In this document: piece after piece, positions 28,805 through 62,700 of the stretch | Numbering within the stretch: position 1 is the stretch's first letter | Layout: every line of letters starts with the position of its first letter | Source: Patescibacteria group bacterium | GTDB lineage: Bacteria > Patescibacteriota > Microgenomatia > 0-14-0-10-38-17 | Reading direction: 5' to 3' | NCBI GenBank assembly: GCA_050953885.1 | Contig: JBMNNJ010000001.1 | Coordinates: forward strand, 399,437-463,436 | Length of the DNA stretch: 64,000 nucleotides | Program-made: the position numbers and the translations under genes | The notes under the pieces: model-generated | What the model was told of the DNA's origin: nothing | Database searches by the model: none | The model's input: only the letters and a program-made list of their open reading frames with translations

Positions 28805-29072
28805 CTCCTCTTTGTTAAGATATTAAGATACTAAGATACAAAGAAACACACTAAAAAATTTAAAAGTCAGTAATCCGTAATTAAAGAAGTGTAAAGTGCA
28901 AATATCAAAGAGTAAAGCCTAAATCAAAGTTCAAAAATATTTTTAATCTTTAGTTTTTGATTTTGGTTTTGCGCTTTGATTTTTGATATTTGATTTATTT
29001 TTATATTATTCGCTCATTCGTGTTCATTCGTTTCCTATTCGTTTTAATTCGTGTTTCTTAACAATTTGTTCT

Positions 29073-42739: not shown

Positions 42740-43735
42740 ATGGAAGAAATTAAATCCGCTCCTAATCCGTGTAAATCCATAATTAGTTTTCTTGCTATCA
42801 CCATCCCCTTTTCTTTCTTCTTATTAATGTTGTTGACGCTGCTAATCAAGCCCACTCCCGTTTTCTCCCAATCTTTCTCTCTCTCCCTCTCACCGCCGGT
42901 GGTTGAGGTGATGATGCAACCGGGAAGAAAAGCTACCTACGCCTTCCAGCTTAAAAACAATTCCTCCTCACCAGTAAACCTTCTCCCCAAGATTATCCCT
43001 TTTCAACCCCAAGGAGAACAAGGTCAAGTTAAATATCCCCCAGAAAACGGCAACTGGCCGGGTCAGGACTATTTTTCTTTTTTAAATGCCGACTTGCAAA
43101 TAAATCAGCCCTTCCTGCTTGCTCCCGATGAGGAAATTCAGCTGGTTTTAAAAATTTCCCTTCCTCAAAACGCTCCCGAAGGCGATTATTATCAAAGCCT
43201 TATTTTGGAACAACTCGCCGCTAACACCCCAAACCAAACTCAAACCCAATTGGTAGGCCAAATCGGCAGTCATATTCTTCTCACCGTTTCCTCCTCGGGA
43301 AAACCAAAAAAAGAAGCCGCCATTGTTGAATTTTTCTCCCCTTCTCTTCTTTTTGGCAAAATATTAGATTCTTTTGATGCTCTTAACCTTGAACTTCGGA
43401 TTAAAAATACCGGCCAGGCCTTTTTCAAACCTTTTGGGGAAATTATCATTTTAAATAACAATGAAGAAAAAGTTGCCTCTCTTCCTCTGCGGCCTGACAA
43501 CATTTTAAAAGACACTACCCGCCAAATTTATTGCCAAGAAGGCCCTTGCCGGGCTGATAAGCTGAACTTTCTTGGTCGTTACCAAGCTCAAGTCCAGTTT
43601 ACCGCTGACGAAAACGGCCCGGTTAGCAAACAAGGTTTTATCTTTTGGGTTCTACCAATTAAATTGATGCTGGGGTTGGTTTTAGGACTGCTTTTGGCTA
43701 TTTTTATCTGGTGGGGATATCGGAAGCGGAAATGA
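42740..43735 (+). CDS. Secreted beta-rich protein with a C-terminal TM anchor
   Basis: Internal Met (MEEIKSAP...) is followed by a signal/TM segment. C-terminal TM helix plus a YRKRK tail. The ORF-track start at 42395 includes the transposase remnant. Confidence 0.5.
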   Translation: MEEIKSAPNPCKSIISFLAITIPFSFFLLMLLTLLIKPTPVFSQSFSLSLSPPVVEVMMQPGRKATYAFQLKNNSSSPVNLLPKIIPFQPQGEQGQVKYPPENGNWPGQDYFSFLNADLQINQPFLLAPDEEIQLVLKISLPQNAPEGDYYQSLILEQLAANTPNQTQTQLVGQIGSHILLTVSSSGKPKKEAAIVEFFSPSLLFGKILDSFDALNLELRIKNTGQAFFKPFGEIIILNNNEEKVASLPLRPDNILKDTTRQIYCQEGPCRADKLNFLGRYQAQVQFTADENGPVSKQGFIFWVLPIKLMLGLVLGLLLAIFIWWGYRKRK

Positions 43736-45762: not shown

Positions 45763-45836
45763 GTGGTGGGCGTATTGCCATACGCCCGCCAACAAGAAAC
45801 AGACAACCAAGACGGGTTTATGCAATAAACCCCTAC
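45763..45836 (+). repeat. Family D REP-like 73-nt palindromic element. A second copy lies at 42455-42527, inside the RAYT remnant.
   Basis: g(t/g)ggggcgtattgccatacgcccgccaaca(g/a)gaaacag(g/a)ca(g/a)ccaa(t/g)acgggtttatgcaataaacccctac. Contains the perfect hairpin GGGCGTATtgccATACGCCC. Confidence 0.8.
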
Positions 45837-46129
45837 TTCTCATTTGCGTATTTTTAACAACATTACCTCTAACTACAGGCTTTTTCACGAAAAAATTATC
45901 CGTCTTCTTTCTTTCCCTAAGAATTCCCAATCTCTTCGTTTTTAATCCTTTAAAAACCTCCTTTTAAAAACGGGCAAATAAATGTTTTGGCTGATAAAAT
46001 GATAAAAAAAGAACTGTCGTTTTTTTTATCAATCTCACCTCATCACTGATAAAAAACCGCCCTTTGGCCCAAAAACTCTCTTTTGCTATAATATTTTTGT
46101 GAAAAAAACCAAAATAACAACCAAAAGGC

Positions 46130-46340
46130 GATAGTCTTATAATAAATTAGATTTTTTGGGGTAATTTTTCCCTTTTTTAAAAAAATTTTTTCTGAATTTT
46201 TTTTGGCAATTTTTCAAAAATTTTTCTGAAATTTTTTTATTTTCTTAAAACTTTTTATTATTTTTTTTCAATTTTTAATTTTTAATAAAAAAATTTAATA
46301 AATTTTAAAAAGTTTTAATAAATTTAAAAAAATCTTTCTT
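46130..46340. promoter_or_regulatory. Extremely AT-rich, phased A/T-tract low-complexity region upstream of the giant-protein locus. It may be a curved-DNA upstream region or the boundary of an acquired segment.
   Basis: Runs of aaaaatttttt / ttttttaaaa repeat for ~200 nt. No ORF. Sequence character changes sharply between the flanks. Confidence 0.4.
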
Positions 46341-46720
46341 AAGAACCCTACCCTCCTTCTTCTTTCCACTTCTTAATATTAAGATGTCTTAATTTACCTT
46401 TTGATATGCGGCTAAAATTCGCATGAAATTCATGTGAAAAAATACCCGCAAACTTCTGCGGTAATTACTAAAGCTATTTCTCCATTTTTAGGGCCTATCT
46501 AAAACCATCAAAATATATCAACTTTAAAAAATAGGGGACTTGACAAACATTTTATAATAGTGTACGCTTTTTATAATTCTGATAATTTATGATAATTTAA
46601 GGCTAAAATTTTATTACCGCAAAAATCATGAACAATCAAAAGGCATCAAACCAAATAGTAGACTTTCTTACTGTTTTTTTGATTTTTTTAATGAGTTTTA
46701 TTTGGCTGTTTATTTAACAT

Positions 46721-47203
46721 ATGCCCCAAACCCTGCTCTCCTCTTTCCGGCTTTATCTTAAAGCCCAAGGGAAAAAGGAAAACACCATCAGGAATTATCT
46801 TCAGGACATTGATCACTTTTTCTCTTGGCTTTCCTCCCAAATTAAAGATTCTTCACTGCAAGCGCTTCTTAACGACCCTAACAAAATAGCTCAAAACATA
46901 ACGGTTAAAAATTTAACTGTCTATCAGCGATTTTTGGAAAAAAATGAAGTTTCCCCTACCACTATCAACCGCCGCCTTTCCTCTCTTCGCCAATTGACAA
47001 AGTTTTTCCTTTCTCAAGGTTGGTTAAAAGAAGACCCAATAAAAAAATTAGCCAATATCTCCATTGAAAAAGAAACCGATAAAACTTCGCAAATTCTGGA
47101 AAAGTTTGCCAAAGCGCTTGAAGAAGAAGGGAAAAGCAAAACCACCATTAGAAATTATCTTTCTGACGTGAAGGGGTTTTTGGAATGGCACGAAAAAGAT
47201 TAA
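46721..47203 (+). CDS. Small protein made of tandem phage-integrase-N-terminal-like (SAM-like/core-binding) modules, with no catalytic domain
   Basis: Three ~35-aa modules of the pattern FxxYLxxxGxSxxTIxxYLxxxxxFxxW: SFRLYLKAQGKKENTIRNYLQDIDHFFSWL, VYQRFLEKNEVSPTTINRRLSSLRQLTKFF and LEKFAKALEEEGKSKTTIRNYLSDVKGFLEW. Confidence 0.5.
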   Translation: MPQTLLSSFRLYLKAQGKKENTIRNYLQDIDHFFSWLSSQIKDSSLQALLNDPNKIAQNITVKNLTVYQRFLEKNEVSPTTINRRLSSLRQLTKFFLSQGWLKEDPIKKLANISIEKETDKTSQILEKFAKALEEEGKSKTTIRNYLSDVKGFLEWHEKD

Positions 47204-47215
47204 AAAGTTAAAAAA

Positions 47216-47776
47216 ATGACCAACAGAATTATTTTGCCTCACGGCAATTATCGTCAGCTTAAATCGTTCCAAACTACAACAATTATTTACGATTTCACGA
47301 TGGCTTTTTGTAATCAATACCGGTCCCTCCTGACTTACAAGAACTACGAGCAAATGATCGGTGGTGCCAGATCGGGTAAGCAAAATATCGCCGAAGGCAG
47401 TCAGGTTTCTGGCACTTCTAAAAAAACAGAGATAAAACTTACCAGCGTTGCCCGTGGGTCACTTGAAGAATTGCTTCAAGATTGCCTTGATTTTCTTCGC
47501 CAAAACAATCTTGTTTTGTGGGATAAAAACGATCCCCGGGCTATTACCATCCGCAAGATTGCTTATAAGCCTGATCGGTCTTATGAGTCCTACAAGTCCT
47601 ATCTTAAAGACCCGGAAAGCGCCGTCAACTGCCTAATTTGCTTAATTCATCAGGCTAATTTTCTTCTTGACCGTCAGCTTGAAGCTTTAGAAAAAGATTT
47701 TTTAGAAAATGGCGGCTTCACTGAAAGGCTTTATCGGGAAAGAAGCGAAGCAAGAAAAAAGCAAAAATATGACTAA
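47216..47776 (+). CDS. Four-helix-bundle protein (23S rRNA intervening-sequence protein / Avd-like family), long form
   Basis: Family motifs NIAEGS...S and ARGSLEEL in the expected spacing. The stop overlaps the start of the giant gene (ATGACTAA). Confidence 0.55.
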   Translation: MTNRIILPHGNYRQLKSFQTTTIIYDFTMAFCNQYRSLLTYKNYEQMIGGARSGKQNIAEGSQVSGTSKKTEIKLTSVARGSLEELLQDCLDFLRQNNLVLWDKNDPRAITIRKIAYKPDRSYESYKSYLKDPESAVNCLICLIHQANFLLDRQLEALEKDFLENGGFTERLYRERSEARKKQKYD

Positions 47777-50700
47777 TAGGACTAATAGGACCAATAATAG
47801 GACCAACTCAGCGGGCTTTTTAGAACCATTGCAAATTCAGGCTTACCTGAAAAGGCTTAAAAAGGAAGGGGCTTCTCCGGCCACTCTTAAACGCAAGGAG
47901 GCGGCCTTAAAAAAATTCCAAAGCTGGCAGGGAAAAGAATACGGACCAAAGTATCCCTTGCCAAAAGGCGCCCCTAAGCCCAAAAAGATAATCTCTAAGA
48001 AGGGAATTTTCCCCAAGGCTTTTCCTCCTTTTTTAAGATATTTTTCTTTCCTAATCGGTTTGGTGCTTTTGGCTAGTTTAGGCTGGGGAGTTTATAGCCA
48101 ATTTTTTGCCCAGCCGAAAGAAACCCCCTCCATGGCCTTCCCTACTAACCCGCCGCTCTTAATTTCTTTTCAGGGTCAGCTTACCGATGATGACGGCACT
48201 CCGATTAATGCCACTATTCCTGCCATTTTCCGCCTTTATAATGTGGACGAGGGTGGTACCGCTCTTTGGGAAGAGCAAAAAAATGTCTCCACCGACCAGG
48301 ACGGCATTTTCAATACTTTCTTGGGTGACACCGCCACGCTGGATCCGGCCATTTTTCGCGACAATATGAATCTTTGGCTGGCAATTGAAATCGACAACGA
48401 CGGGGAAATGGAACCCCGTCAGCAAATTGCCACCGTGGGCTATGCTTTCAATTCCCGCTATCTTCAAGGTTATGAGGCCACCACAGCAGCTACCGCTAAC
48501 ACCATACCGGTTATTAATGCCGATGGCGATTTAATTTTAGCCTCCTCCTCTCCCGCCATTGAAGCCACCTCCGGCACCTTTGGCCTTAAAGGCGAAGCGA
48601 TTACTATTCAATCAACCGGCGGCACGGGCGGCGGGGATATTTTAATTCAGCCCGATGCCGATACCCAAGGACAGGTAATTATCTACTCGGCAACTACCGC
48701 CGACAATTCTTTTACCGTTCAAAATAGCAATATCACCACTGGCTCGCTAATTTATGGCGAGGCCGGTACTAGCGCTAGCGGTTATAACCTGCTAAAACTT
48801 ACCTCCGGAAGCCTTTTAACCGATAAGTTTGTGGTTGACTATGCCGGCAACACCGACATCGCCGGCAACTTAACCGTTGACAGTTCCGGATTTTTTGGCA
48901 ATAGTGTCGGCATCGGCACCACCAGCCCCGGGGCAACCTTGGATGTTAACGGCAACTTACGAATTGGCACCCTGACAACAGGCTCCACCGATACCGTCTT
49001 AACCCACTCCAACAATATTGTCCAGCAAAGAACAATTGATCCCCGGGTTTGGGGGGAAACCTTGGTAGACGGCAGCGGTAGTGCCGGCTATGTGGCCTAC
49101 TGGCAGGATGCCAATACCCTGACGGGGGAGCAATACCTCGCCACCTCAAGAGGTGGCACCGGCGATGACACCTCCTCTACCACTGGTGTCCCCTACATTT
49201 CTTCCGGCAACTGGCAATATGAATCAAGTTTAAATGTGAGCCGGGGCGGCACTGGGTTTTCTTCTTTAGCAGCTGGCTCCCTAATCTACGGTTCCGGCTC
49301 CTCCCCAATGAACGCTTTAGCAATTGGCACTACTAACTATGTTTTAACCTCCAATGGTTCTGCTCCTAACTGGTCACTAATTAGCCAGGCAAATATCAGT
49401 CCTGATTCTCTAGACTTTGACCAATTCCAGGATACCCTAGATCTGGATACTGACTTAGTCTTAAATCAAGCCGCTTACACCTGGACGCAAAACTTTACCG
49501 GAGCAACTACTACCGGCTTAACTTACAACGCTAATGCTTTAACTTCAGGAAAAGGGGTATATGTTTCTTCTACTTCAACTGGTTTAACAGGAAACTTGGC
49601 AGAAATAAGTCTGTCGGGAAACAATGCCGCCAACACCGGTAATGTTTTAAGACTGGCCCAAACTGGCGCCTTATCAGCGGCAATTCCTTTAATGGTGACC
49701 AATCTTGGCGCCGGCGCTTCCTTCAGGGTTAACGATGAAACGGGCGACAATGACAGCACCCCCTTTATTATTGATGCTTCCGGCGCTGTGGGGGTGGGAA
49801 CAGCCATGCCAAACGCCTCGGCAATTCTTGATTTAACTTCAACCGCCAAGGGCTTTCTTGCTCCAAGAATGACTACCAGCCAAAGAGATGCTATTGTTAA
49901 CCCCGCCGCCGGCCTTTTAATCTATAACACCACCACCAATCAATATAACATGTATAACGGCACGGGCTGGACTCTTATTGGCGGCGGAGATGTTTCTTGG
50001 AGTAGCTTAATTGACCCGACAGAAAATCTCTTGCTAAACCATGGGGCCTACACCACCACCTTTACCTGGGGAGCCTCAACCGGAGCTAATAACCTCTTTA
50101 CCCTTACCGATACGGCCAACAATACCGGCACGGGCTACCTTTTAAACCTTAATACCGCCACGGGGTCAAGTCTTAAACCTTTAAGGGTGGCTTCGGCCGG
50201 AGTTGAGGCTTTGGCCATCGATGCCGCCGGCAATGTGGGGATCGGGACAACGAGCCCGGGAGAAAAGTTGGATGTAGTTGGAGCAATCCGTTCCAGTGGA
50301 GTCGATGTATCATCTTTAAATCCAGGAACAAGCACCACCGGAGGTTTATATTTAGGTGCACATATGGGACACCTTATACTTGACTTAAGAAATAATGATT
50401 CCAATGACTCAATTGCTTTCCGATATTCAGCGGCAAACAACACAGTAGTAGATACTATTGGTCTAGTTATGAAAGGCGGAACTGGCAACGTCGGCATCGG
50501 CACCACCAGCCCCGGGGCAACCTTGGATGTTAACGGCAACTTACGAATTGGCACCCTGACAACAGGCTCCACCGATACCGTCTTAACCCACTCCAACAAT
50601 ATTGTCCAGCAAAGAACAATTGATCCCCGGGTTTGGGGGGAAACCTTGGTAGACGGCAGCGGTAGTGCCGGCTATGTGGCCTACTGGCAGGATGCCAATA

Positions 50701-53700
50701 CCCTGACGGGGGAGCAATACCTCGCCACCTCAAGAGGTGGCACCGGCGATGACACCTCCTCTACCACTGGTGTCCCCTACATTTCTTCCGGCAACTGGCA
50801 ATATGAATCAAGTTTAAATGTGAGCCGGGGCGGCACTGGGTTTTCTTCTTTAGCAGCTGGCTCCCTAATCTACGGTTCCGGCTCCTCCCCAATGAACGCT
50901 TTAGCAATTGGCACTACTAACTATGTTTTAACCTCCAATGGTTCTGCTCCTAACTGGTCACTAATTAGCCAGGCAAATATCAGTCCTGATTCTCTAGACT
51001 TTGACCAATTCCAGGATACCCTAGATCTGGATACTGACTTAGTCTTAAATCAAGCCGCTTACACCTGGACGCAAAACTTTACCGGAGCAACTACTACCGG
51101 CTTAACTTACAACGCTAATGCTTTAACTTCAGGAAAAGGGGTATATGTTTCTTCTACTTCAACTGGTTTAACAGGAAACTTGGCAGAAATAAGTCTGTCG
51201 GGAAACAATGCCGCCAACACCGGTAATGTTTTAAGACTGGCCCAAACTGGCGCCTTATCAGCGGCAATTCCTTTAATGGTGACCAATCTTGGCGCCGGCG
51301 CTTCCTTCAGGGTTAACGATGAAACGGGCGACAATGACAGCACCCCCTTTATTATTGATGCTTCCGGCGCTGTGGGGGTGGGAACAGCCATGCCAAACGC
51401 CTCGGCAATTCTTGATTTAACTTCAACCGCCAAGGGCTTTCTTGCTCCAAGAATGACTACCAGCCAAAGAGATGCTATTGTTAACCCCGCCGCCGGCCTT
51501 TTAATCTATAACACCACCACCAATCAATATAACATGTATAACGGCACGGGCTGGACTCTTATTGGCGGCGGAGATGTTTCTTGGAGTAGCTTAATTGACC
51601 CGACAGAAAATCTCTTGCTAAACCATGGGGCCTACACCACCACCTTTACCTGGGGAGCCTCAACCGGAGCTAATAACCTCTTTACCCTTACCGATACGGC
51701 CAACAATACCGGCACGGGCTACCTTTTAAACCTTAATACCGCCACGGGGTCAAGTCTTAAACCTTTAAGGGTGGCTTCGGCCGGAGTTGAGGCTTTGGCC
51801 ATCGATGCCGCCGGCAATGTGGGGATCGGGACAACGAGCCCGGGAGAAAAGTTGGATGTAGTTGGAGCAATCCGTTCCAGTGGAGTCGATGTATCATCTT
51901 TAAATCCAGGAACAAGCACCACCGGAGGTTTATATTTAGGTGCACATATGGGACACCTTATACTTGACTTAAGAAATAATGATTCCAATGACTCAATTGC
52001 TTTCCGATATTCAGCGGCAAACAACACAGTAGTAGATACTATTGGTCTAGTTATGAAAGGCGGAACTGGCAACGTCGGCATCGGCACCACCAGCCCCGGG
52101 GCAACCTTGGATGTTAACGGCAACTTACGAATTGGCACCCTGACAACAGGCTCCACCGATACCGTCTTAACCCACTCCAACAATATTGTCCAGCAAAGAA
52201 CAATTGATCCCCGGGTTTGGGGGGAAACCTTGGTAGACGGCAGCGGTAGTGCCGGCTATGTGGCCTACTGGCAGGATGCCAATACCCTGACGGGGGAGCA
52301 ATACCTCGCCACCTCAAGAGGTGGCACCGGCGATGACACCTCCTCTACCACTGGTGTCCCCTACATTTCTTCCGGCAACTGGCAATATGAATCAAGTTTA
52401 AATGTGAGCCGGGGCGGCACTGGGTTTTCTTCTTTAGCAGCTGGCTCCCTAATCTACGGTTCCGGCTCCTCCCCAATGAACGCTTTAGCAATTGGCACTA
52501 CTAACTATGTTTTAACCTCCAATGGTTCTGCTCCTAACTGGTCACTAATTAGCCAGGCAAATATCAGTCCTGATTCTCTAGACTTTGACCAATTCCAGGA
52601 TACCCTAGATCTGGATACTGACTTAGTCTTAAATCAAGCCGCTTACACCTGGACGCAAAACTTTACCGGAGCAACTACTACCGGCTTAACTTACAACGCT
52701 AATGCTTTAACTTCAGGAAAAGGGGTATATGTTTCTTCTACTTCAACTGGTTTAACAGGAAACTTGGCAGAAATAAGTCTGTCGGGAAACAATGCCGCCA
52801 ACACCGGTAATGTTTTAAGACTGGCCCAAACTGGCGCCTTATCAGCGGCAATTCCTTTAATGGTGACCAATCTTGGCGCCGGCGCTTCCTTCAGGGTTAA
52901 CGATGAAACGGGCGACAATGACAGCACCCCCTTTATTATTGATGCTTCCGGCGCTGTGGGGGTGGGAACAGCCATGCCAAACGCCTCGGCAATTCTTGAT
53001 TTAACTTCAACCGCCAAGGGCTTTCTTGCTCCAAGAATGACTACCAGCCAAAGAGATGCTATTGTTAACCCCGCCGCCGGCCTTTTAATCTATAACACCA
53101 CCACCAATCAATATAACATGTATAACGGCACGGGCTGGACTCTTATTGGCGGCGGAGATGTTTCTTGGAGTAGCTTAATTGACCCGACAGAAAATCTCTT
53201 GCTAAACCATGGGGCCTACACCACCACCTTTACCTGGGGAGCCTCAACCGGAGCTAATAACCTCTTTACCCTTACCGATACGGCCAACAATACCGGCACG
53301 GGCTACCTTTTAAACCTTAATACCGCCACGGGGTCAAGTCTTAAACCTTTAAGGGTGGCTTCGGCCGGAGTTGAGGCTTTGGCCATCGATGCCGCCGGCA
53401 ATGTGGGGATCGGGACAACGAGCCCGGGAGAAAAGTTGGATGTAGTTGGAGCAATCCGTTCCAGTGGAGTCGATGTATCATCTTTAAATCCAGGAACAAG
53501 CACCACCGGAGGTTTATATTTAGGTGCACATATGGGACACCTTATACTTGACTTAAGAAATAATGATTCCAATGACTCAATTGCTTTCCGATATTCAGCG
53601 GCAAACAACACAGTAGTAGATACTATTGGTCTAGTTATGAAAGGCGGAACTGGCAACGTCGGCATCGGCACCACCAGCCCCGGGGCAACCTTGGATGTTA

Positions 53701-56700
53701 ACGGCAACTTACGAATTGGCACCCTGACAACAGGCTCCACCGATACCGTCTTAACCCACTCCAACAATATTGTCCAGCAAAGAACAATTGATCCCCGGGT
53801 TTGGGGGGAAACCTTGGTAGACGGCAGCGGTAGTGCCGGCTATGTGGCCTACTGGCAGGATGCCAATACCCTGACGGGGGAGCAATACCTCGCCACCTCA
53901 AGAGGTGGCACCGGCGATGACACCTCCTCTACCACTGGTGTCCCCTACATTTCTTCCGGCAACTGGCAATATGAATCAAGTTTAAATGTGAGCCGGGGCG
54001 GCACTGGGTTTTCTTCTTTAGCAGCTGGCTCCCTAATCTACGGTTCCGGCTCCTCCCCAATGAACGCTTTAGCAATTGGCACTACTAACTATGTTTTAAC
54101 CTCCAATGGTTCTGCTCCTAACTGGTCACTAATTAGCCAGGCAAATATCAGTCCTGATTCTCTAGACTTTGACCAATTCCAGGATACCCTAGATCTGGAT
54201 ACTGACTTAGTCTTAAATCAAGCCGCTTACACCTGGACGCAAAACTTTACCGGAGCAACTACTACCGGCTTAACTTACAACGCTAATGCTTTAACTTCAG
54301 GAAAAGGGGTATATGTTTCTTCTACTTCAACTGGTTTAACAGGAAACTTGGCAGAAATAAGTCTGTCGGGAAACAATGCCGCCAACACCGGTAATGTTTT
54401 AAGACTGGCCCAAACTGGCGCCTTATCAGCGGCAATTCCTTTAATGGTGACCAATCTTGGCGCCGGCGCTTCCTTCAGGGTTAACGATGAAACGGGCGAC
54501 AATGACAGCACCCCCTTTATTATTGATGCTTCCGGCGCTGTGGGGGTGGGAACAGCCATGCCAAACGCCTCGGCAATTCTTGATTTAACTTCAACCGCCA
54601 AGGGCTTTCTTGCTCCAAGAATGACTACCAGCCAAAGAGATGCTATTGTTAACCCCGCCGCCGGCCTTTTAATCTATAACACCACCACCAATCAATATAA
54701 CATGTATAACGGCACGGGCTGGACTCTTATTGGCGGCGGAGATGTTTCTTGGAGTAGCTTAATTGACCCGACAGAAAATCTCTTGCTAAACCATGGGGCC
54801 TACACCACCACCTTTACCTGGGGAGCCTCAACCGGAGCTAATAACCTCTTTACCCTTACCGATACGGCCAACAATACCGGCACGGGCTACCTTTTAAACC
54901 TTAATACCGCCACGGGGTCAAGTCTTAAACCTTTAAGGGTGGCTTCGGCCGGAGTTGAGGCTTTGGCCATCGATGCCGCCGGCAATGTGGGGATCGGGAC
55001 AACGAGCCCGGGAGAAAAGTTGGATGTAGTTGGAGCAATCCGTTCCAGTGGAGTCGATGTATCATCTTTAAATCCAGGAACAAGCACCACCGGAGGTTTA
55101 TATTTAGGTGCACATATGGGACACCTTATACTTGACTTAAGAAATAATGATTCCAATGACTCAATTGCTTTCCGATATTCAGCGGCAAACAACACAGTAG
55201 TAGATACTATTGGTCTAGTTATGAAAGGCGGAACTGGCAACGTCGGCATCGGCACCACCAGCCCCGGGGCAACCTTGGATGTTAACGGCAACTTACGAAT
55301 TGGCACCCTGACAACAGGCTCCACCGATACCGTCTTAACCCACTCCAACAATATTGTCCAGCAAAGAACAATTGATCCCCGGGTTTGGGGGGAAACCTTG
55401 GTAGACGGCAGCGGTAGTGCCGGCTATGTGGCCTACTGGCAGGATGCCAATACCCTGACGGGGGAGCAATACCTCGCCACCTCAAGAGGTGGCACCGGCG
55501 ATGACACCTCCTCTACCACTGGTGTCCCCTACATTTCTTCCGGCAACTGGCAATATGAATCAAGTTTAAATGTGAGCCGGGGCGGCACTGGGTTTTCTTC
55601 TTTAGCAGCTGGCTCCCTAATCTACGGTTCCGGCTCCTCCCCAATGAACGCTTTAGCAATTGGCACTACTAACTATGTTTTAACCTCCAATGGTTCTGCT
55701 CCTAACTGGTCACTAATTAGCCAGGCAAATATCAGTCCTGATTCTCTAGACTTTGACCAATTCCAGGATACCCTAGATCTGGATACTGACTTAGTCTTAA
55801 ATCAAGCCGCTTACACCTGGACGCAAAACTTTACCGGAGCAACTACTACCGGCTTAACTTACAACGCTAATGCTTTAACTTCAGGAAAAGGGGTATATGT
55901 TTCTTCTACTTCAACTGGTTTAACAGGAAACTTGGCAGAAATAAGTCTGTCGGGAAACAATGCCGCCAACACCGGTAATGTTTTAAGACTGGCCCAAACT
56001 GGCGCCTTATCAGCGGCAATTCCTTTAATGGTGACCAATCTTGGCGCCGGCGCTTCCTTCAGGGTTAACGATGAAACGGGCGACAATGACAGCACCCCCT
56101 TTATTATTGATGCTTCCGGCGCTGTGGGGGTGGGAACAGCCATGCCAAACGCCTCGGCAATTCTTGATTTAACTTCAACCGCCAAGGGCTTTCTTGCTCC
56201 AAGAATGACTACCAGCCAAAGAGATGCTATTGTTAACCCCGCCGCCGGCCTTTTAATCTATAACACCACCACCAATCAATATAACATGTATAACGGCACG
56301 GGCTGGACTCTTATTGGCGGCGGAGATGTTTCTTGGAGTAGCTTAATTGACCCGACAGAAAATCTCTTGCTAAACCATGGGGCCTACACCACCACCTTTA
56401 CCTGGGGAGCCTCAACCGGAGCTAATAACCTCTTTACCCTTACCGATACGGCCAACAATACCGGCACGGGCTACCTTTTAAACCTTAATACCGCCACGGG
56501 GTCAAGTCTTAAACCTTTAAGGGTGGCTTCGGCCGGAGTTGAGGCTTTGGCCATCGATGCCGCCGGCAATGTGGGAATTGGGACGACGAGTCCGGGGGCA
56601 AAGCTACATGTAAATGCTGGTGCAGCACAATTGACAATGGAAAGAGATGAAACCCACATTAACACATGGGATTTCAGAATCACTCAGGAGGCGGGCATCT

Positions 56701-59700
56701 CTGCAAACTCCCTATACCTGAGAGCGTCAGAAAATACAGCCGACTTTGGAATAAGGGCAGCTAATTCTGGGAACGTCCAGTTCATTTTGAAGGGCCCAAC
56801 AGGCAACGTCGGCATCGGGACGACGGCGCCGGGGGCGAAGCTTGATGTTAACGGAACGGGTAGGTTTGCCACTTCCGTGTCTTCGCCTCTTTTTCAAGGT
56901 GATACCGGGGCGGTTACCTTTGGCAATGCTTCCTATGCCACCACCATTGCCGGTTCAGGATTAACCATCTCTCCTACTGCCTGGACAGCCACTCCTACCA
57001 TATCAGGGCTTATTACCGCTACTTTAGGATTAACCGCCAATGGAGCCTTAACCGCCAACAGCACCTTCACTTTAGGAGACGGCGCTGATGCCGGTTCGGT
57101 TAATACCTCAAGTTGGGATATCTCCACCACTGGCGTCGCCTCGGGATTTACCGGCCTTACTTCCTCCGGCACGATCACCTTCTCTTCTCTGGCCGCCAAC
57201 CGACTGGTGACCACCACCACAGGAGGAGAACTAACCACCAGCGCCGAGGGGACTGTCGGCCAGCCCTTACTTTCCGGAGGGACATCCTCCCCCAACTGGG
57301 GGACTCTTGGTCTGGTTTATGGCGGTACCAATGCCGATCTTTCCGGGGTGGCCCAAGGAGGGCTAATTTACAAGGAAACTTCCGCCTTAGCCGGCACCGG
57401 GGCCTTAACGGGAATTCTTCAGGGAAATAACGCCAGCGCCCCCACCGCCATCACCGGCACCGCCAATTATCTGCCCAAATGGTCCTCAACCGCCCCTTAC
57501 CTCACCACCGCTTCCCAAATTTTCGACAGCGGCGCTAATGTCGGCATTGGCAATAGCAATCCTCAAGCCCTGCTTCATGTGGGCGCCGGCGGCACGCCCA
57601 ATTATGCTTCAAGCGGCGATGTTTATATCCAAAACGATCTCGAAGTGGACGGCACCATTTACGGCGCGCTGGATATTACCGACGCCACTTTTGACTTTTT
57701 GGAAGTTAAGCGGGCGGCCACTTTCTCCGCCCAAATCGCCTCGGATATTCCCATTACCGTTAAAAACACCGGCGGCAATGAGGTGGCGCGGTTCACCAAC
57801 GAGGGCAAGCTAAGACTTGGTTCTGCCGGCGCGCCCACCGACACTTTAGATATTGATGGCGACGCTGATATTTCCGGCAACTTGGATGTGGGCAATGGCC
57901 TTGATGTTTTAGGCGCCAACTTCACCGTCGGCGGCGCTAACTTTACCGTTAGCCAAGCCGGCACGGTGACCGGCGGCACCTACAACGGCCAAACTATTTC
58001 CTCCACTGCCAGCTTTACCGGCACTCTTAGCGTCGCTTCAACCTTCAACGCTAATAGCAATGTGGGCTTGGGAAACGAAGCCACCGACACCATCAACGCC
58101 GCCGGGCAATTTGTCTCCGGCCTTATCCCCCAAACAAACAGTTATAACCTTGGCTCCCCCACTAACCACTGGGGCGCTTTGTACGTTGATTCCATTTACG
58201 GCGGTCAGGTGGGCGAATTTGACTTTCTTAAGGCCCGGGGCGCCACCCTCTCGGCCGAAATCCCCACCGACAAAACCTTGGTTTTGGAAGGCCTTGCTTC
58301 CGGCCATACCGCCAATTTAATTGAAGCCAACGCCAACGGCGCCACCGCTCTCACCCTCTCCCCGGCCGGCAATTTAACCTTAGGAGGAACGATAACTTTA
58401 CCCAACGGTAACACCTTAACCGGCGTGGCTTCTTATATTCAATTTAACAATGGCATAAGCGTTGGCGGGGGAACCACCTATCGGCTCACCTCCACTGGCG
58501 ACGCATATCTTAATAATCTCTACACCGGCGGAACGCAAAGGCTTTCTTCAACCGGCGCCCTTGCCAACATTACCGACTACAGCCAATCCTCCGGCAATTT
58601 CGCCATTTCGGGAACTGGCACTTTCTCTACCGCCACCGGCAATATCTCCCTAAATGGAGCCACCACCGTAGCCGACGGCAAATCTTTCACCGCCAACGGG
58701 CCGGTGACCTTGGGCGACGGGGGCGATGCGGTGGCCATTAACAGCAACATTTGGGATATTACCTCGGCCGGCGTCGCTTCCGGCTTAACCCAATTAACCG
58801 TTGACAACCTCCAGCTTGACGGCAACACTCTTTCTTCAACCACGGACAACATTACTCTTGACGCCGCCGCTTACTTGGTGATTGCCGACCAAATTGCCTC
58901 AAGCTTAATTCCTTCCGCCACCAACACTTATGATTTGGGCTCCCCGGAGAACTACTGGGACGATGCTTACATCAACACTTTAACCGCTAATTCGCTAAAT
59001 TTTGATTTTATCGCCGCCCGCGGCGCCACTTTTTCGGCCGAAATCCCCACCGACAAAACCTTGGTTCTTAATGCCGCTACCGGCCAAACCGCCAATCTTT
59101 TGGAAATCAATTCCGCCCCCGGCGCCAGCGGCGACTTAATGGTGGTCACCGGCGGCGGCAATGTCGGCATTGGCAACAGCAATCCGGGAACATATAAATT
59201 AGATGTGGCGGGCACGGGAAGATTTAATTCCACCGCTAATCCGGGGTTAACGGTTGGCAACGGCGCTATTGGCTATTTAAAAATTGGCGGCTCAACTATT
59301 TATGATAACAACAGCGACTTAACTTTAGACTCCGATACTGCCTTGGTGATTTTAGCCGATGATTTGCAAATTAACGGCAATGATATTTATGATTCCGGCG
59401 CAAACCAGAGAATCAATTTGGGCGCCACCACCACTTTATACAACACCACCACCATCCTTTCGGGCACCACCGCCTTAACCGCCTCTTCCTTGGCAACCTT
59501 TACCACCGCCTCCTCTTTGGCAATGCCCGCCACCACCTCTTTAACCTTAGGCGGTTCAGCAACCATCTACGGCGGCACGACGGCTTCAGGAACACTAACT
59601 CTTCAGTCAACTTCAAACGCCACCAAAGGCAATATCCTAATTAATCCTTCTGGCGGCAATGTCGGCATCGGGACGACGGGGCCGGGGGCGAAATTATCTA

Positions 59701-62700
59701 TTAATGGCTCGCCAGCGATAGAGTTTGCTTCTTGCGGGACTTCTTACGGAGGTTGTTATATCAAGGAAGGATGGGGCCCTGAATTATATTCCAATACATC
59801 GCAACCTTTTCAAGTTTTAAATACTTCACTTTTGGTTGGATATGACCAAACAGATTCAACCGCCAGAGGAAGCGGTAATTTACTCGTAAGCGGCAATGTC
59901 GGCATCGGGACGACGGGGCCGAACACTGAACTAAGTTTAAATCACGGTTATATAAATTTTGAGCCCTCGCTAACCTCGTGGCTAAAAACTGGAGGAGAAG
60001 GAATACTTATGTGGAACTCTAATGATATTGAGTGGCTCGAATCAACATACGAGAGCGGATACGGCCACAGATTATATTCCATCGATCCTGGGGCAGGTGC
60101 AGTTACACACCTTCGGCTAGCCGCAAGAAATAACTCTGCCTCGTGGACAGATATGGTTACTTTTGTTTCTAACGGCAACGTCGGCATCGGGACGACGGGG
60201 CCACAACATAAATTACATATTTATACGACAACCGCACAAGAGGGAATAATTATTAACGCTGGCACTTATCCAGAAATCAGATTTGAAGAGGCTGGAACAG
60301 TAAGAGGCTATCTTAGCGTTGCTGGAAGCGCAGGAGGATATGGAACAGGCACATTAGCTGATTCTATGATACTTCGCGCTGAAGGTAATATGCATCTTAT
60401 TACGAATGCAGGGACTGTGGTACAAACATTAACCAGTGGCGGCAATGTGGGCATTGGGACAACAACTCCGGGGGCAAGACTGGATGTTAACGGCAATTTA
60501 AAAATCGCCACCCTGACAACCGGCGCCACCAATACGGTTTTAACCCACAGCGGCAATATTGTCCAGCAAAGAACCATTGATTCCCGAGTTTGGGGATCAG
60601 CGTTGGTTGATTATTCCGGCACCTCGGCTAACTACATTCCCAAAATGCTTGACGCCGACACGATTACCAATTCCCTAATTTACGAAGCCGCCAGCAGCCG
60701 CCGCATCGGCATTAGCACCACCAGCCCGGGTTCAAAATTAACCGTTGCCGGCGGCGCTTCCTATTTTGGCGCCCTGCCTGCCCCCACCGGAGTAGTGGCC
60801 ACTCCCACCTCGGGAGGCGGCTTAGTGGCGGGAACTTACTATTATGTGGTCAACGCCTTTGACAGCAACAACCTTTCCTCAAACAAATCAAGCCAGGTTT
60901 CCTGCACGGTTGATGGCTCTACCACCACCGCCTGCCAAATTTCCTGGGTGGCCGTTCCCGGCGCCACCAACTACCGCGTTTACGGCAGAGCCAGCAACGC
61001 CCAAAACCAATACTGGCAAACCACTTCTCTCTACTACACCGACACCGGCGCCGCCGGCGCCAGCGACACGCCGCCGGGACCAATCTCCGCTTTCTTTACC
61101 GGCAATATAAAAGCGGAACGCTTTGCGGATTCGGCTAACGACACCTACTACCTTGATCCGGCCTATGCCACTCTTTCCCTCACCACCGCCGGAGCGGCGG
61201 GCATCGGCTACTCGGCCGGCCAGATGAGCGGTGCCACCGCCAAGCTGGCCGTTGACGGCAATGTGGGAATTGGGACGACGAGTCCGGGGGCAAAGCTACA
61301 TGTAAATGCTGGTGCAGCACAATTGACAATGGAAAGAGATGAAACCCACATTAACACATGGGATTTCAGAATCACTCAGGAGGCGGGCATCTCTGCAAAC
61401 TCCCTATACCTGAGAGCGTCAGAAAATACAGCCGACTTTGGAATAAGGGCAGCTAATTCTGGGAACGTCCAGTTCATTTTGAAGGGCCCAACAGGCAACG
61501 TCGGCATCGGGACAGTTTTCGGCGAAGCAGATACTACAGGAAAATTGAACGTAAGAAAAGATAGCACAGCAGATGGAATGATTAGCGATGTTCTTACGTT
61601 GCGCAATCATTGGCATACCGTTACTAATATAGGAACTGGAATTGCATTGAGATTTAAACAAGGATCAACCAGCGAAACCGGAAAGCTTGTTGATATTGGT
61701 TCAATTGCTGAAAGTGGGTGGAGCAACGCAGTCGGTTTCTTTGTTAAGACTGGTGGTACTGAAAGGTTAAGAATAAGTAACGGCGGCAACGTCGGCATCG
61801 GGACAGCGAGTCCAAGTTACCCACTACACGTATATAAAAATGCAGGTGACTGGACGGCGCGCTTCCAAAACACTTCGGGATCCATAGATATTGGACCAGC
61901 CAATGGTAGTGGAGCCCACATTTATACAGACCTAAGCCAATTTTTCTTTAATCAACCCATTACCCTCACGGGCACCAGCAGTATTTCTTCTTATTCCACG
62001 AATAATCTCTATCTTAAAACAGGTACGCAGGCTAACACAAGGATGACAATTCTTGCTAGTAATGGCAATGTCGGCATCGGGACGACGGGGCCTGTTCAAA
62101 AATTGCATGTTGAAGGCAATTGTGTAACGGGAGATACAAAGTTAGCAATTTTTGAGGATCACAGTTCACAGTTCACAGTTCACAGCAATGCTCCTTCAGA
62201 GCAGATCACAGATCACAGATCACAGTTCACGGAAATACAAATAAAGGATATAAAATCAGGAACAAAAGTATATTCGCTAAATCAAGAAACTGGGAAACTA
62301 GAACCTGCTAGGATCAACAAACTTCTTGACATGGGAACAAAGCCTGTATTTAAATTAACTACAGAGGGTGGAAAAGAGATTCGCACCACTGGCAACCACC
62401 CATATCTTGCCCAACTATCTTATGAACAATACCAGCAAAGAGTTCAACTTCGAGAAACTGGAAGTTTGGAAGAAGAGTATGGCCTTAGTCAAGGCGATCT
62501 ATCAGTTGCTCGAGAGTTTTCCCAAACACGAGAGGTATGGTCTAGTGGATCAACTTCGCCGAGCAGCAACCTCAATTCTTCTGAATATCGCCGAGGGGAA
62601 CGGGAGGTACAGCCACAAGGAATTTATCCAATTTCTCTATCAGGCCAGGGGCAGTCTCTACGAGGTGGTGGCTTGTCTCAAACTAACTCAAGAGCTGGGT

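What the first reader, a model, noticed from the sequence alone, without database searches (positions are those of the whole stretch)
47216..47776. Second Avd-like four-helix-bundle protein translationally coupled to the giant gene. It could be a diversity-generating-retroelement accessory factor, or belong to a new partnership between four-helix-bundle proteins and a giant fibre.
The stop of the 186-aa four-helix-bundle gene overlaps the start codon of the giant gene (ATGACTAA), which implies co-expression. DGR accessory variability determinants (Avd) belong to this same fold and family, and DGRs commonly diversify giant surface proteins. No reverse transcriptase or template/variable repeat pair with adenine-specific mismatches is visible in this window, and the gene's 3' end lies beyond 64000. 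Without a DGR, two four-helix-bundle paralogs tied to one fibre gene, one upstream and one inside its intein, would still be an undescribed association.
Basis: inference. Interest (0 to 1): 0.7.

Follow-up and report, generated by a model that had tools for sequence, protein, structure and literature searches.

The report
Repeat-flanked four-helix-bundle cassette, not DGR
The small gene in front of the giant fibre gene is a real, conserved member of a widespread but uncharacterised "four-helix-bundle plus suffix" family. It sits on a compact insertion-type cassette bounded by 9-base repeats, not in a diversity-generating retroelement, although such cassettes turn up beside giant surface-protein genes unusually often.

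Summary
ORF 47216-47776 (186 aa) is intact. Its TAA (47774-76) overlaps the ATG (47769-71) of an ORF that stays open to base 64000.

- **Family:** It belongs to NCBIfam TIGR04258/TIGR02436 (the 23S-rRNA-IVS-protein superfamily), not the bAvd family.
- **No DGR:** There is no reverse transcriptase and no template/variable repeat pair in the 64-kb window, and none within about 10 kb in about 90 homologous loci. No relative occurs in 2.9 M viral contigs.
- **Position:** The gene lies at the break point of a split integrase-SAM-like domain, between ORF 46721-47203 and the giant gene. Sister genomes have the same split with no four-helix gene. They carry an ~85-nt hairpin or an IS200-like gene there instead.
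- **Repeats:** Across phyla the family is flanked, and invaded in frame, by arrays of a 9-nt near-palindromic unit (ATAGGWCCT). Here the array supplies the giant gene's ATG and the TAA. A sister strain has two separate arrays and no overlap, so the "coupling" is a lineage-specific deletion.
- **Open point:** These cassettes are about 6-fold enriched next to proteins of 1000 aa or more, and several CPR giants are bracketed by two four-helix genes.

Best reading: an intervening-sequence-like cassette encoding a nucleic-acid-binding protein.

The parts
46064..46143 (+). Two promoter-like sites (10 of 12 matches each) in a 750-nt AT-rich leader. This is the likely start of the transcription unit SAM-like ORF / four-helix gene / giant gene.
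   Evidence: One search gives the sites at 46064-46092 and 46114-46143, and finds no + strand terminator before 48400. One search shows GC of 18-30% over 45950-46700. These are consensus matches only; function is inferred.
46721..47203 (+). 160-aa ORF with one complete integrase-type SAM-like domain plus the first half of a second one. It is the upstream piece of a split gene.
   Evidence: The C-terminal 43 aa match only profile positions 1-35 of Phage_int_SAM_1/4. The same truncation occurs in the orthologue L084.
47193..47215 (.). 5' junction: the TAA of the SAM-like ORF plus a degenerate A-rich repeat of about 9 nt that runs into the four-helix gene's ATG. The first unit of the gene (ATGACCAAC) resembles the last 3' unit (TAGGACCAAC).
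   Evidence: (period 8-9, 2.6 copies) and the sequence. The sister strain L158 has 36 extra bases here.
47216..47776 (+). Four-helix-bundle + suffix gene (186 aa, basic, pI 9.1). Helices 1-3 are residues 16-96, the repeat-encoded linker is residues 100-132, and the suffix (fourth bundle helix plus a terminal helix) is residues 133-185.
47574..47605 (+). Internal array of the 9-nt unit in GTCCTA orientation, encoding the conserved linker RSYESYKSY. It is the left arm of an inverted repeat.
   Evidence: I1: 32 nt, 78% complementary to 47764-47795. In one search the RNA fold pairs the two arrays (z = -2.5).
47766..47806 (+). 3' array: TATGACTAA TAGGACTAA TAGGACCAA TAA TAGGACCAAC. It contains the four-helix gene's TAA and the giant gene's ATG, and it encodes the giant's first 13 residues, MTNRTNRTNNRTN. 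It is the right arm of the inverted repeat.
   Evidence: D1; period 9, 3.4 copies, 90% matches; period 12, 2 copies. Copy number differs in L158 and in the 97-98% identical variants P0001-P0005.
47769..64000 (+). 5' part (5410 codons) of the giant surface or fibre-like gene. It begins with the second half of the split SAM-like domain (residues 18-53), then a transmembrane stretch, then a Gly/Thr/Ser-rich body with 4.84 identical 1584-bp repeats and one intein.
   Evidence: Pfam finds only the intein in it.
62422..62811 (+). Context: a canonical four-helix-bundle (23S_rRNA_IVP) gene nested in the intein (62121-63092), in the +1 frame relative to the host. It is only 33% identical to the upstream gene over 78 aa.

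Best explanation
**What it is.** The 186-aa gene is the cargo of a compact (~0.6 kb) insertion-type cassette of the "four-helix-bundle + suffix" family (TIGR04258). [quoted passage not shown]

**How the cassette is built.** It is delimited, and partly built, by arrays of a 9-nt near-palindromic unit (ATAGGWCCT). Because the unit is three codons long, arrays can sit inside reading frames. They are open in two frames and carry TAG/TAA in the third, and unit variants (TATGAC) provide ATGs.

**What it does here.**
- The cassette occupies the gap between the two halves of a gene that is split inside an integrase-SAM-like domain.
- The three ORFs are probably co-transcribed from the AT-rich leader near 46.1 kb.
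- The array hands translation on to the giant gene. It supplies the giant's ATG, and in this lineage a deletion between two arrays fused stop and start into ATGACTAA.
- The internal and 3' arrays can pair and hide that ATG until a ribosome reads through. Any translational coupling is therefore a by-product of array recombination, not a conserved design.

**Likely role of the protein (inferred).** The basic helical protein most likely binds nucleic acid, probably its own repeat arrays as DNA or RNA. It would serve the maintenance or spread of the cassette, as was proposed long ago for the ORFs of rRNA intervening sequences. It is not part of a DGR.

**Shown:** family membership, fold, purifying selection, absence of RT and TR/VR, the split domain, absence of the cassette in close relatives, and the repeat architecture.

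**Inferred:** co-transcription, re-initiation, nucleic-acid binding and mobility.
For: **Family and fold.**: Foldseek top hits are 2GSC and 2RLD (TM 0.71-0.73 on the target), and bAvd is absent from the top 50.

**No DGR parts.**. No relative in viral contigs. No defence-system model matches.

**Split domain.**
- The end of ORF 46721 matches SAM profile positions 1-35.
- The start of the giant matches positions 43-78.
- Joined, they give one domain covering 1-78 of 83 at 49 bits.
- The Levyibacteria homologue L022 has both domains intact in one protein.

**The cassette is facultative.**
- L084 and L086 (Shapirobacteria) keep the synteny Big_1 gene, then SAM ORF, then giant. Their gap is 121-131 nt and holds a hairpin, with no four-helix gene.
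- L085, whose giant N-terminus is 93% identical, has an IS200-like ORF end there instead.

**Repeat architecture.**
- Of 83 strict arrays in 1.19 Mb, 68 lie in or next to the four-helix gene; a shuffled control gives 1.
- The unit profile shows 96-97% conserved AT outside the search pattern.
- In-frame tripeptide runs occur at the N-terminus, loop 1, the linker and the C-terminus.

**Array plasticity and origin of the overlap.**

**Diverse neighbours.** secA, dnaK, an SNF2 helicase, Wzy and LamG giants.

**Hints of nucleic-acid binding.** Median pI is 9.3. Some members carry a topoisomerase-type zinc ribbon.

**Precedent.** rRNA intervening sequences with this ORF family are described as selfish elements of unknown mechanism (PMC4990558), and they occur in CPR rRNA genes (PMC11270868).
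Against: - No transposase, recombinase or nuclease is encoded, so there is no demonstrated way to move.
- No precisely empty site with target duplication was found.
- Some positions (after secA, after dnaK) are stable across species, so movement is at best rare.
- The split of the SAM-like domain is shared with relatives that lack the cassette. The cassette therefore probably entered an existing gap rather than causing the split.
- The enrichment next to giant genes, and giants bracketed by two four-helix genes, are not predicted by a purely selfish model.
- Pairing between arrays of the same locus is not stronger than between loci, so a conserved RNA stem is not supported family-wide.
- The neighbour analysis used crude ORF calling.
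Confidence: 0.5

Rival explanations
1. The four-helix-bundle + suffix protein is a dedicated accessory factor for giant surface-protein genes. It might be an RNA- or DNA-binding factor needed to transcribe, stabilise, translate or regulate very long genes. The repeat arrays at the 5' end would be its binding sites, and linkage to the giant gene would be functional rather than accidental.
For: - Adjacent ORFs are 1000 aa or longer in 15 of 116 cases, against 17 of 777 background ORFs (odds ratio 6.6, p=1.8e-6).
- Two CPR clades of the family are almost entirely next to giant surface genes of different kinds.
- The closest relatives (71-76% identity) sit 11-39 nt upstream of DUF2341/LamG giants.
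- L087 and L013 are bracketed by a suffix-type and a canonical four-helix gene. In L017 a giant is followed directly by a canonical one, with the suffix-type gene 1.5 kb upstream.
- The window shows the same pairing of the two types.
- Purifying selection is strong.
Against: - Orthologues of this giant gene do without it.
- Most family members neighbour ordinary genes such as secA, dnaK, helicases and enzymes.
- Moranbacteria-type copies follow a T-run and a TGTGGTATAAT motif, read here as a terminator and their own promoter (sequences).
- The overlap with the giant start is not conserved even in a strain about 87% identical.
- No four-helix gene occurs in 65 unrelated fibre-motif loci.
- The enrichment may simply reflect giant accessory genes being tolerant hot spots for inteins, GIY-YIG genes, IS200-like genes and similar elements.
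Confidence: 0.27
2. It is the Avd of a diversity-generating retroelement that diversifies the C-terminus of the giant protein. The reverse transcriptase and template repeat would lie beyond base 64000.
For: - It has a four-helix bundle of the same superfamily as Avd.
- DGRs are common in CPR and often target surface proteins (general knowledge; PMC10053308).
- The 3' end of the gene is unseen.
Against: - There is no RT and no TR/VR in 64 kb.
- An avd gene normally lies next to the TR and RT near the 3' end of the target. This gene is more than 16 kb upstream of that end.
- No RT-like ORF was found near about 90 homologues, and no A-biased repeats.
- There is no match to the bAvd profile at the E <= 0.01 used, and bAvd is not among the structural hits.
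- The family is absent from viral contigs.
- The suffix domain occurs only in small proteins of up to 300 aa and is never fused to or called with an RT.
- A related, much smaller fibre-motif protein (L093) ends in a segment that looks like an S74 chaperone domain (my reading of the translation; not profile-tested), which is not a typical DGR target fold.
Confidence: 0.03
3. It is an RNA-level intervening sequence. The complementary arrays form a double-stranded stem that RNase III cuts, as in 23S rRNA intervening sequences. The cut would separate the cistrons, release the small mRNA, and set the stability and translation of the giant mRNA's 5' end.
For: - The units are self-complementary (TAGGNCCTA).
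- In the window, 47574-47605 pairs with 47764-47795, and the predicted fold has z = -2.5.
- About 15 loci show strong array-array pairing.
- There is precedent for RNase III excision of IVS elements that carry this ORF family (PMC4990558).
Against: - Pairing within a locus is not better than between loci (p = 0.16-0.5).
- The stem in the window encloses only the suffix-coding part, so a cut would destroy the small gene's mRNA.
- No Rfam family matches.
- Many loci have an array on one side only.
Confidence: 0.1

Closest known systems
NCBIfam TIGR04258 / TIGR02436 'four helix bundle (suffix domain-containing) protein'
   Same: It scores above both curated cut-offs. Length, invariant motifs (HGGYR, RSGxQNIAEG, GTSKKTE, ARxSLEELL, LIHQxNxLLD, GGFxE) and architecture are the same as in thousands of annotated members.
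   Different: Nothing differs at the protein level, so it is a member. The family has no assigned function. I found no paper on it, and none describing the 9-nt arrays or the linkage to giant genes.
23S rRNA intervening-sequence protein (S23p; Pfam PF05635; structures 2GSC Xcc0516 and 2RLD BT_0352) and the IVS elements that carry it
   Same: - Same fold.
- A small ORF on a short insertion with repeats at its ends, sitting inside another gene without abolishing it.
- Sporadic distribution.
- Regarded as a selfish element of unknown mechanism (PMC4990558).
- Present in CPR rRNA insertions (PMC11270868).
   Different: - The host is a protein-coding gene or operon, not rRNA.
- The protein scores below the Pfam gathering score (26.4 against 33.8 bits) because the loop between helices 3 and 4 is expanded and a terminal helix is added.
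- The ends are tandem 9-nt arrays rather than one long inverted repeat.
- The host is kept functional by stop and restart of translation, not by RNase III excision.
bAvd, accessory variability determinant of DGRs (Pfam PF22296; PDB 4DWL)
   Same: A basic four-helix bundle of the same superfamily, and Avd binds nucleic acid and the RT (established knowledge; PMC10053308).
   Different: There is no RT and no TR/VR pair. It has no bAvd profile hit and is not a top structural match. The position relative to the putative target is wrong.
Free-standing homing-endonuclease genes that split host genes into two translated pieces, and homing-endonuclease genes nested in inteins (from my own knowledge of phage 'genes in pieces')
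   Same: A small foreign ORF sits between two halves of a domain that is contiguous in relatives. The halves are expressed as separate polypeptides. The same giant gene also hosts an intein carrying a foreign ORF. The same site is occupied by different selfish elements in different strains.
   Different: No nuclease domain is present. The split predates, or is independent of, this cassette.
Short tandemly repeated or palindromic intergenic repeats (cyanobacterial heptamer STRR, REP elements with their IS200-like RAYT transposases; from my own knowledge)
   Same: Short, near-palindromic units occur in tandem arrays between genes. An IS200-like ORF end occupies the homologous site in L085. Heptamer arrays flank the intein-nested four-helix gene.
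   Different: The unit is 9 nt, which preserves the reading frame, and arrays extend into coding sequence. They are tightly tied to one protein family (68 of 83 arrays). No transposase is linked in cis.

Membership tests
DGR accessory variability determinant (Avd) | Encoded next to a DGR reverse transcriptase | tested here: not met
   All window ORFs of 300 aa or more are assigned to other families, or lack any YxDD motif. No RT-like ORF lies within about 10 kb in 80 homologous loci, nor in the annotated loci L087-L092 and L158. DNA beyond 64000 was not seen.
DGR accessory variability determinant (Avd) | Template/variable repeat pair with adenine-specific mismatches, with the VR at the 3' end of the target gene | tested here: not met
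   A sensitive self-blastn of the window gave no A- or T-biased pair involving the giant gene. Twelve giant-linked loci gave none either. The 3' end of this giant gene is outside the window, and attempts to reach it failed.
DGR accessory variability determinant (Avd) | Match to the bAvd-like profile or structure | tested here: not met
   No PF22296 hit for the 186-aa protein at E <= 0.01. The profile search of PDB sequences finds only 2GSC. The Foldseek top 50 lacks bAvd.
DGR accessory variability determinant (Avd) | Four-helix-bundle fold, basic protein | tested here: met
   The AlphaFold model has pLDDT 92.8 and is all-helical. pI is 9.1.
Four helix bundle + suffix family (TIGR04258 with TIGR02436) | Scores above the curated cut-offs of both models, with the suffix at the C-terminus | tested here: met
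   TIGR04258 scores 77.9 bits (cut-off 40) over residues 133-181. TIGR02436 scores 28.1 bits (cut-off 24) over residues 17-99.
Four helix bundle + suffix family (TIGR04258 with TIGR02436) | Conserved family residues and a length of about 180-200 aa | tested here: met
   The window's protein has all 42 residues that are invariant in the 38-sequence alignment. Homologues are 177-217 aa long.
23S rRNA intervening-sequence element | Inserted in a helix of an rRNA gene | tested here: not met
   The flanks are protein-coding. Rfam finds no rRNA in the window.
23S rRNA intervening-sequence element | Encodes a PF05635-type four-helix-bundle ORF | tested here: met
   The PF05635 hit (8.3e-06, 26.4 bits) is below the gathering score of 33.8, but the fold matches 2GSC and 2RLD.
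23S rRNA intervening-sequence element | Terminal inverted repeats forming an RNase III stem that excises the element | tested here: inconclusive
   An inverted repeat exists (47574-47605 with 47764-47795; fold z = -2.5), but it brackets only the suffix-coding part. Family-wide pairing is no better than cross-locus controls. Cleavage cannot be tested here.
Autonomous transposable element or homing element | Encodes a transposase, recombinase or nuclease, and shows target-site duplication at a filled versus empty site | tested here: not met
   The only ORF is the helical protein. The suffix domain is never fused to an enzyme. Relatives lacking the cassette have other sequence in the gap, so no clean empty site was available.

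The most novel reading that the evidence does not exclude
The suffix-type four-helix-bundle cassettes would be a previously unrecognised class of intervening element for protein-coding DNA. A small basic protein recognises arrays of a frame-preserving 9-bp palindromic unit. Protein and arrays together let the cassette settle inside or between genes, preferentially at giant surface-protein genes. The arrays donate stop and start codons, so the host gene survives in pieces. The same logic (a canonical four-helix gene with heptamer arrays) would explain the copy nested out of frame in the intein, and ultimately how the classic rRNA intervening sequences spread.
Probability: 0.18. Interest if true: 0.75.

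Novelty: new variant of a known kind. Interest (0 to 1): 0.45.

Why it matters
ORFs of rRNA intervening sequences (the S23p / four-helix-bundle proteins) have been known since the early 1990s. They are among the commonest "hypothetical" families in CPR, Bacteroidota, Verrucomicrobiota and cyanobacteria. Neither their function nor how their elements spread is known.

This locus and its relatives give concrete handles:
- a defined cis-element (the 9-nt ATAGGWCCT arrays) tied to one subfamily;
- array copy-number changes between strains, with a close relative (L085) that lacks the cassette;
- a case where the cassette sits at the break of a split domain and supplies the downstream start codon.

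If the protein binds the arrays, that would be the first functional assignment for the non-DGR branch of the Avd superfamily.

The unexplained excess of these genes beside giant surface-protein genes also bears on how CPR bacteria build, express and reshuffle their largest genes.

For annotation, it warns against calling every PF05635 protein next to a large surface gene an Avd or a DGR.

Tried and rejected
**Reaching DNA beyond base 64000.**
- An exact 49-mer from the window's end was absent from genome contigs and metagenome contigs.
- A protein-based metagenome scan with the last 302 residues gave one relative at 79% identity (L093), which is a different, much smaller fibre-motif gene (its C-terminus looks like an S74 chaperone domain; not profile-tested), plus weak motif matches.
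- The JGI contig carrying the identical gene ends 2.8 kb into the giant gene.

**Group I or II intron, ribozyme or other known RNA in the gap.** Rfam gave nothing. With 12 nt upstream and about 30 nt downstream of the ORF, there is no room for an intron core.

**The idea that the cassette created the split of the SAM-like domain.** This was weakened because L084 and L086 share the split without the cassette.

**A conserved, covarying stem between the linker array and the 3' array.** Not supported family-wide.

**A defence-system component.** No PADLOC hit.

**A phage origin.** No relative in IMG/VR.

**Function from domain fusions of the suffix.** There were 1115 cluster representatives, all of 300 aa or less, with no enzymatic partners. 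Only a topoisomerase-type zinc ribbon appears in a few members.

**Recent paralogy of the two four-helix genes in the window.** Rejected: 33% identity over 78 aa.

**Recent transposition within one genome.** Two copies from the same metagenome-assembled genome (L038 and L044) are 86% identical including their flanks. This cannot be told apart from strain mixture or segmental duplication.

**Shine-Dalgarno analysis to choose between ATG 47709 and ATG 47769.** Uninformative, because only a few genes in this genome have such motifs.
Full report
**The observation**

The window carries an intact ORF at 47216-47776 (186 aa). Its stop TAA (47774-47776) lies inside the octamer ATGACTAA. The ATG of that octamer (47769-47771) opens a frame that runs 5410 codons without a stop to the end of the window.

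The ORF is a real gene:
- It passes the curated cut-offs of NCBIfam TIGR04258 (four-helix-bundle suffix domain; 77.9 bits against 40; residues 133-181) and TIGR02436 (28.1 against 24; residues 17-99). It gives a sub-threshold Pfam PF05635 match.
- More than 8000 homologues were scored, and the best 120 are at least 58% identical.
- Its sequence has all 42 residues that are invariant across the 38 aligned family members.
- Against a sister strain there are 22 synonymous-only and 4 non-synonymous codon differences.

An alignment-based AlphaFold model is confident (pLDDT 92.8). Helices 1-3 form the canonical part. A linker covers residues 100-132. The "suffix" then supplies the fourth bundle helix plus a terminal helix. 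Foldseek's best solved matches are Xcc0516 (2GSC) and BT_0352 (2RLD), the "S23 / rRNA intervening-sequence protein" structures. bAvd is not among the first 50, and a profile search of PDB sequences finds only 2GSC.

The fold claim is therefore right. The relationship to Avd is only at superfamily level.

**Is it a DGR part?**

The window is ordinary chromosome from a CPR (Microgenomates-like) bacterium. It carries genes for SHMT, ThyX, TopA, DprA, PBP2, MreB/C, ArgRS, LeuRS, ComEC and others. The closest named relatives of the giant gene are Candidatus Shapirobacteria.

- Every ORF of 300 aa or more is accounted for, and none is a reverse transcriptase.
- A permissive self-comparison gives no repeat pair with adenine-specific mismatches.
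- At family level, 80 loci from GTDB species representatives (Patescibacteria, Planctomycetota, Verrucomicrobiota, Ignavibacteria, Acidobacteriota, Desulfobacterota and others) contain no RT-like YxDD ORF within about 10 kb.
- The annotated contigs of the closest relatives show none either.
- Twelve giant-linked loci show no A-biased repeats.
- The family is absent from 2.9 million viral contigs.
- The suffix domain occurs only in small proteins.

I could not retrieve DNA beyond base 64000. A DGR at the far 3' end is not strictly excluded, but I put it at about 3%.

**What the surroundings show**

The upstream ORF 46721-47203 has one complete integrase-type SAM-like domain and then only the first half of a second (profile positions 1-35). 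The giant ORF begins, after 13 repeat-encoded residues, with the missing second half (positions 43-78). Joined in silico, the two halves give one full domain (positions 1-78 of 83, 49 bits, against 22 and 21 bits apart). A Levyibacteria homologue (L022) has both domains intact in one protein that continues into the region homologous to giant residues 87-370. The four-helix gene therefore sits exactly at the break of a split gene.

The split is older than, or independent of, the cassette:
- Two Shapirobacteria genomes (L084, L086) keep the synteny Big_1 gene, then SAM-like ORF (truncated at the same point), then giant gene. Their gap is only 121-131 nt and contains an ~85-nt inverted-repeat element. 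There is no four-helix gene.
- A contig whose giant N-terminus is 93% identical to the window's (L085) has the end of an IS200-like ORF abutting a remodelled start.
- A sister lineage about 86-87% identical in DNA (L158) has the cassette.

The site is therefore a hot spot where different small elements come and go. The cassette is dispensable for this giant gene.

**The repeat arrays**

Printing the flanks of all 80 homologous genes showed something I had not expected. On both sides, most carry tandem arrays of a 9-nt unit.

- With a strict detector (three phased RRGWC cores), 83 arrays occur in 1.19 Mb. Sixty-eight of them lie in or beside the four-helix gene. A shuffled control gives 1.
- The unit profile is A-T-(A/G)-(G/A/T)-G-(A/T)-C-(C/T)-(T/A). 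The leading AT lies outside the search pattern and is 96-97% conserved.
- TAGGNCCTA is self-complementary apart from its centre.
- Because the unit is three codons long, arrays extend into coding sequence without shifting the frame. Family members carry runs such as KTN, RSY, KSY or PIG at the N-terminus, in loop 1, in the linker and at the C-terminus.
- A third of the ATG starts lie in a unit variant ATG(A/T)C, against 17% for background ORFs.

In the window:
- The linker RSYESYKSY (47574-47605) is such an array in one orientation.
- The 3' array (47766-47806: TATGACTAA TAGGACTAA TAGGACCAA TAA TAGGACCAAC) contains both the small gene's TAA and the giant's ATG, and it encodes the giant's MTNRTNRTNNRTN.
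- The two arrays form the longest inverted repeat of the region (32 nt, 78% complementary), and a predicted RNA structure buries the giant's start codon (z = -2.5).

**Origin of the overlap**

In L158 the small ORF reads through a first array (…KQKDGTNRTNKTNEAGIKQHSR*). A spacer of about 50 nt follows. A second array then provides the giant's ATG (MTNRTNRTNSAG…). The window's ATGACTAA is what remains after a deletion between the first units of the two arrays, and the window also has one extra 12-nt unit.

The array-borne ATG is conserved, which supports 47769 as the true start. The stop/start overlap is a lineage-specific product of array recombination. Translational coupling may well occur here, but it cannot be the reason the genes are neighbours. 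This genome shows Shine-Dalgarno-like motifs at only a few genes (5 of 35 starts, by a permissive test). Promoter-like sites lie only in the AT-rich leader near 46.1 kb, and no terminator-like site on the + strand intervenes. Co-transcription of the three ORFs is the simplest reading, and it is inferred.

**Neighbours across the family**

The genes are mostly co-directional with their neighbours (85% upstream and 80% downstream, against a 71% background) and tightly packed, often with ATGA overlaps.

The neighbours are diverse:
- secA in five loci;
- dnaK in four loci;
- an SNF2 helicase;
- Wzy-type ligases;
- LamG/DUF2341 giants;
- a giant protein that starts with a MerR-type HTH domain.

A distance tree shows context-coherent clades: a secA clade, a dnaK clade, and two CPR clades in which nearly every member is next to a giant surface gene of one kind or another.

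Evidence for linkage to giant genes:
- Adjacent ORFs are 1000 aa or longer in 12.9% of cases, against 2.2% of background ORFs (odds ratio 6.6, p=1.8e-6).
- The closest relatives of the window's protein (71-76% identity) lie 11-39 nt upstream of LamG giants.
- In L087 and L013 a giant gene is bracketed by a suffix-type gene at its 5' end and a canonical four-helix gene at its 3' end. In L017 a giant is followed directly by a canonical one, with the suffix-type gene 1.5 kb upstream. This echoes the window, where the second copy is nested in the intein.

Evidence against a general link with fibres: 65 unrelated fibre-motif loci contain no four-helix gene.

The linkage to giant genes is therefore real but not obligatory, and I cannot explain it. 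I found no paper that mentions it, the arrays or the suffix family.

**Most likely mechanism**

I commit to an intervening-sequence-type cassette. It is a small, strongly conserved, basic protein (median pI 9.3). A few members carry a topoisomerase-type zinc ribbon, and Avd, a distant relative, binds nucleic acid. The protein most likely recognises the repeat arrays as DNA or RNA. The arrays let the cassette live inside operons and even at breaks in coding sequence, because they terminate the upstream frame and restart the downstream one. This extends the old proposal that the ORF of rRNA intervening sequences serves the element's own mobility or maintenance (PMC4990558). Such ORFs are known in CPR rRNA insertions (PMC11270868).

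- **Shown:** membership, fold, selection, lack of DGR parts, the split domain, absence of the cassette in close relatives, array architecture and plasticity.
- **Inferred:** nucleic-acid binding, co-transcription, re-initiation and any mobility. No enzyme for movement is encoded, and no clean empty site was found.

Confidence is about 0.5. The main rival, at about 0.27, is a host-beneficial accessory factor for very long surface-protein genes. An RNase-III-processed RNA element (about 0.1) and a true DGR Avd (about 0.03) follow.

**Verdict**

The DGR interpretation is not supported. The "undescribed association" is partly supported. The gene is a member of a known, uncharacterised family. The cassette architecture, its position at a split domain and its excess beside giant genes appear to be new details of a known kind of element.

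Noticed in passing
window 62121-63092 (intein), 62422-62811 (nested gene): A canonical four-helix-bundle gene (23S_rRNA_IVP 2.8e-41; bAvd-like 34 bits, below cut-off) is nested in the intein where a homing endonuclease would normally be. It is in the +1 frame, yet the intein/giant frame stays open across all 130 codons. None of 20000 synonymous recodings of the nested gene keeps the host frame open, so this is a selected overlapping-gene arrangement.
   Followed up: partly
window 62159-62185, 62202-62230, 62812-62841, 62950-62976: Heptamer tandem arrays (TCACAGT x3.9 perfect, CAGATCA x4.1, then GTGAACT in inverted orientation) flank the intein-nested four-helix gene and are translated as part of the intein. 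This parallels the 9-nt arrays of the suffix-type cassette.
   Followed up: no
window 48906-56575: The giant ORF contains 4.84 tandem copies of a 1584-bp (528-aa) unit with zero mismatches between copies. This is either very recent amplification or concerted evolution, or an assembly effect. Short-read contigs of the same organism break here (L001 ends 2.8 kb into the gene).
   Followed up: partly
window 24735-24782, 29016-29063, 39589-39636; also L158 3450-3495: Intergenic arrays of a ~10-nt unit ATTCGTNNNN (81-85% identical between copies). The same motif appears in the spacer between the four-helix gene and the giant gene of the sister strain, and its complement (ACGAAT) appears at that strain's 5' junction.
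   Followed up: no
window 42459-42527 and 45768-45836: Two copies (94% identical) of a 69-bp element with a GC-rich hairpin (GGGCGTATTGCCATACGCCC), resembling a REP or MITE element. One lies inside ORF 42395-43735 and the other follows the Big_1 gene.
   Followed up: no
L084 5866-5950; L086 4140-4225: In two Shapirobacteria genomes, the gap between the SAM-like ORF and the giant gene holds a conserved ~85-nt element with perfect 9-bp terminal inverted repeats (TAGGGTCGG...CCGACCCTA). Rfam finds no match. The overall fold is not unusually stable (z = -1.5).
   Followed up: partly
L085 3-176: In the contig whose giant N-terminus is 93% identical to the window's, an IS200/Y1-transposase-like ORF end (Pfam E = 0.021) overlaps the giant's start. 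The first ~27 codons of the giant are replaced.
   Followed up: partly
L087 142-5260; L013 8738-16474; L017 9995-18979: CPR giant surface genes (LamG in L087 and L013; L017 not checked) flanked by four-helix genes: a suffix-type gene at the 5' end (1.5 kb upstream in L017) and a canonical-type gene directly after the 3' end. No RT or repeat pair is present.
   Followed up: partly
window 46721-47203 and 47769-47930; L022 1264-1950; L013 4402-4620: Giant surface proteins next to these cassettes begin with cytoplasmic DNA-binding-type modules before the membrane span. These are two integrase SAM-like domains (window, L022, P0131) or a MerR-type HTH (L013 upstream giant). It is unknown whether these modules relate to the arrays at the genes' 5' ends.
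   Followed up: no
L059, L062, L070, L075, L081 (C-termini of the family members): Some non-CPR members of the suffix family carry a C-terminal topoisomerase-type C4 zinc ribbon (Zn_ribbon_Top1, 7.9e-10 in L059). This hints at DNA binding.
   Followed up: partly
L010 4679-7303; L080 8692-10671; L077 1894-3423: In these loci the four-helix ORF runs without a stop into, or out of, the neighbouring host gene (LamG protein, agmatine deiminase, peptidase S9). This gives apparent in-frame fusions across the arrays.
   Followed up: no
window 45950-46700: A 750-nt leader with 18-30% GC and several T-rich tandem repeats lies upstream of the SAM-like ORF. The only strong promoter-like sites of the region are here.
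   Followed up: no
window 47216-47776 versus L158 2861-3403: Between the two sister lineages the cassette ORF is more similar in DNA (94.7%) than the flanking SAM-like ORF (86.5%) or the giant N-terminus (91.5%). It has about half their synonymous divergence. Possible causes are recent exchange of the cassette or extra constraint on its RNA or DNA.
   Followed up: partly
L091 9919-10242: A GIY-YIG nuclease ORF overlaps the 3' end of a 1899-aa LamG giant that has a suffix-type four-helix gene at its 5' end. This is one more selfish-type gene at a giant-gene boundary.
   Followed up: no
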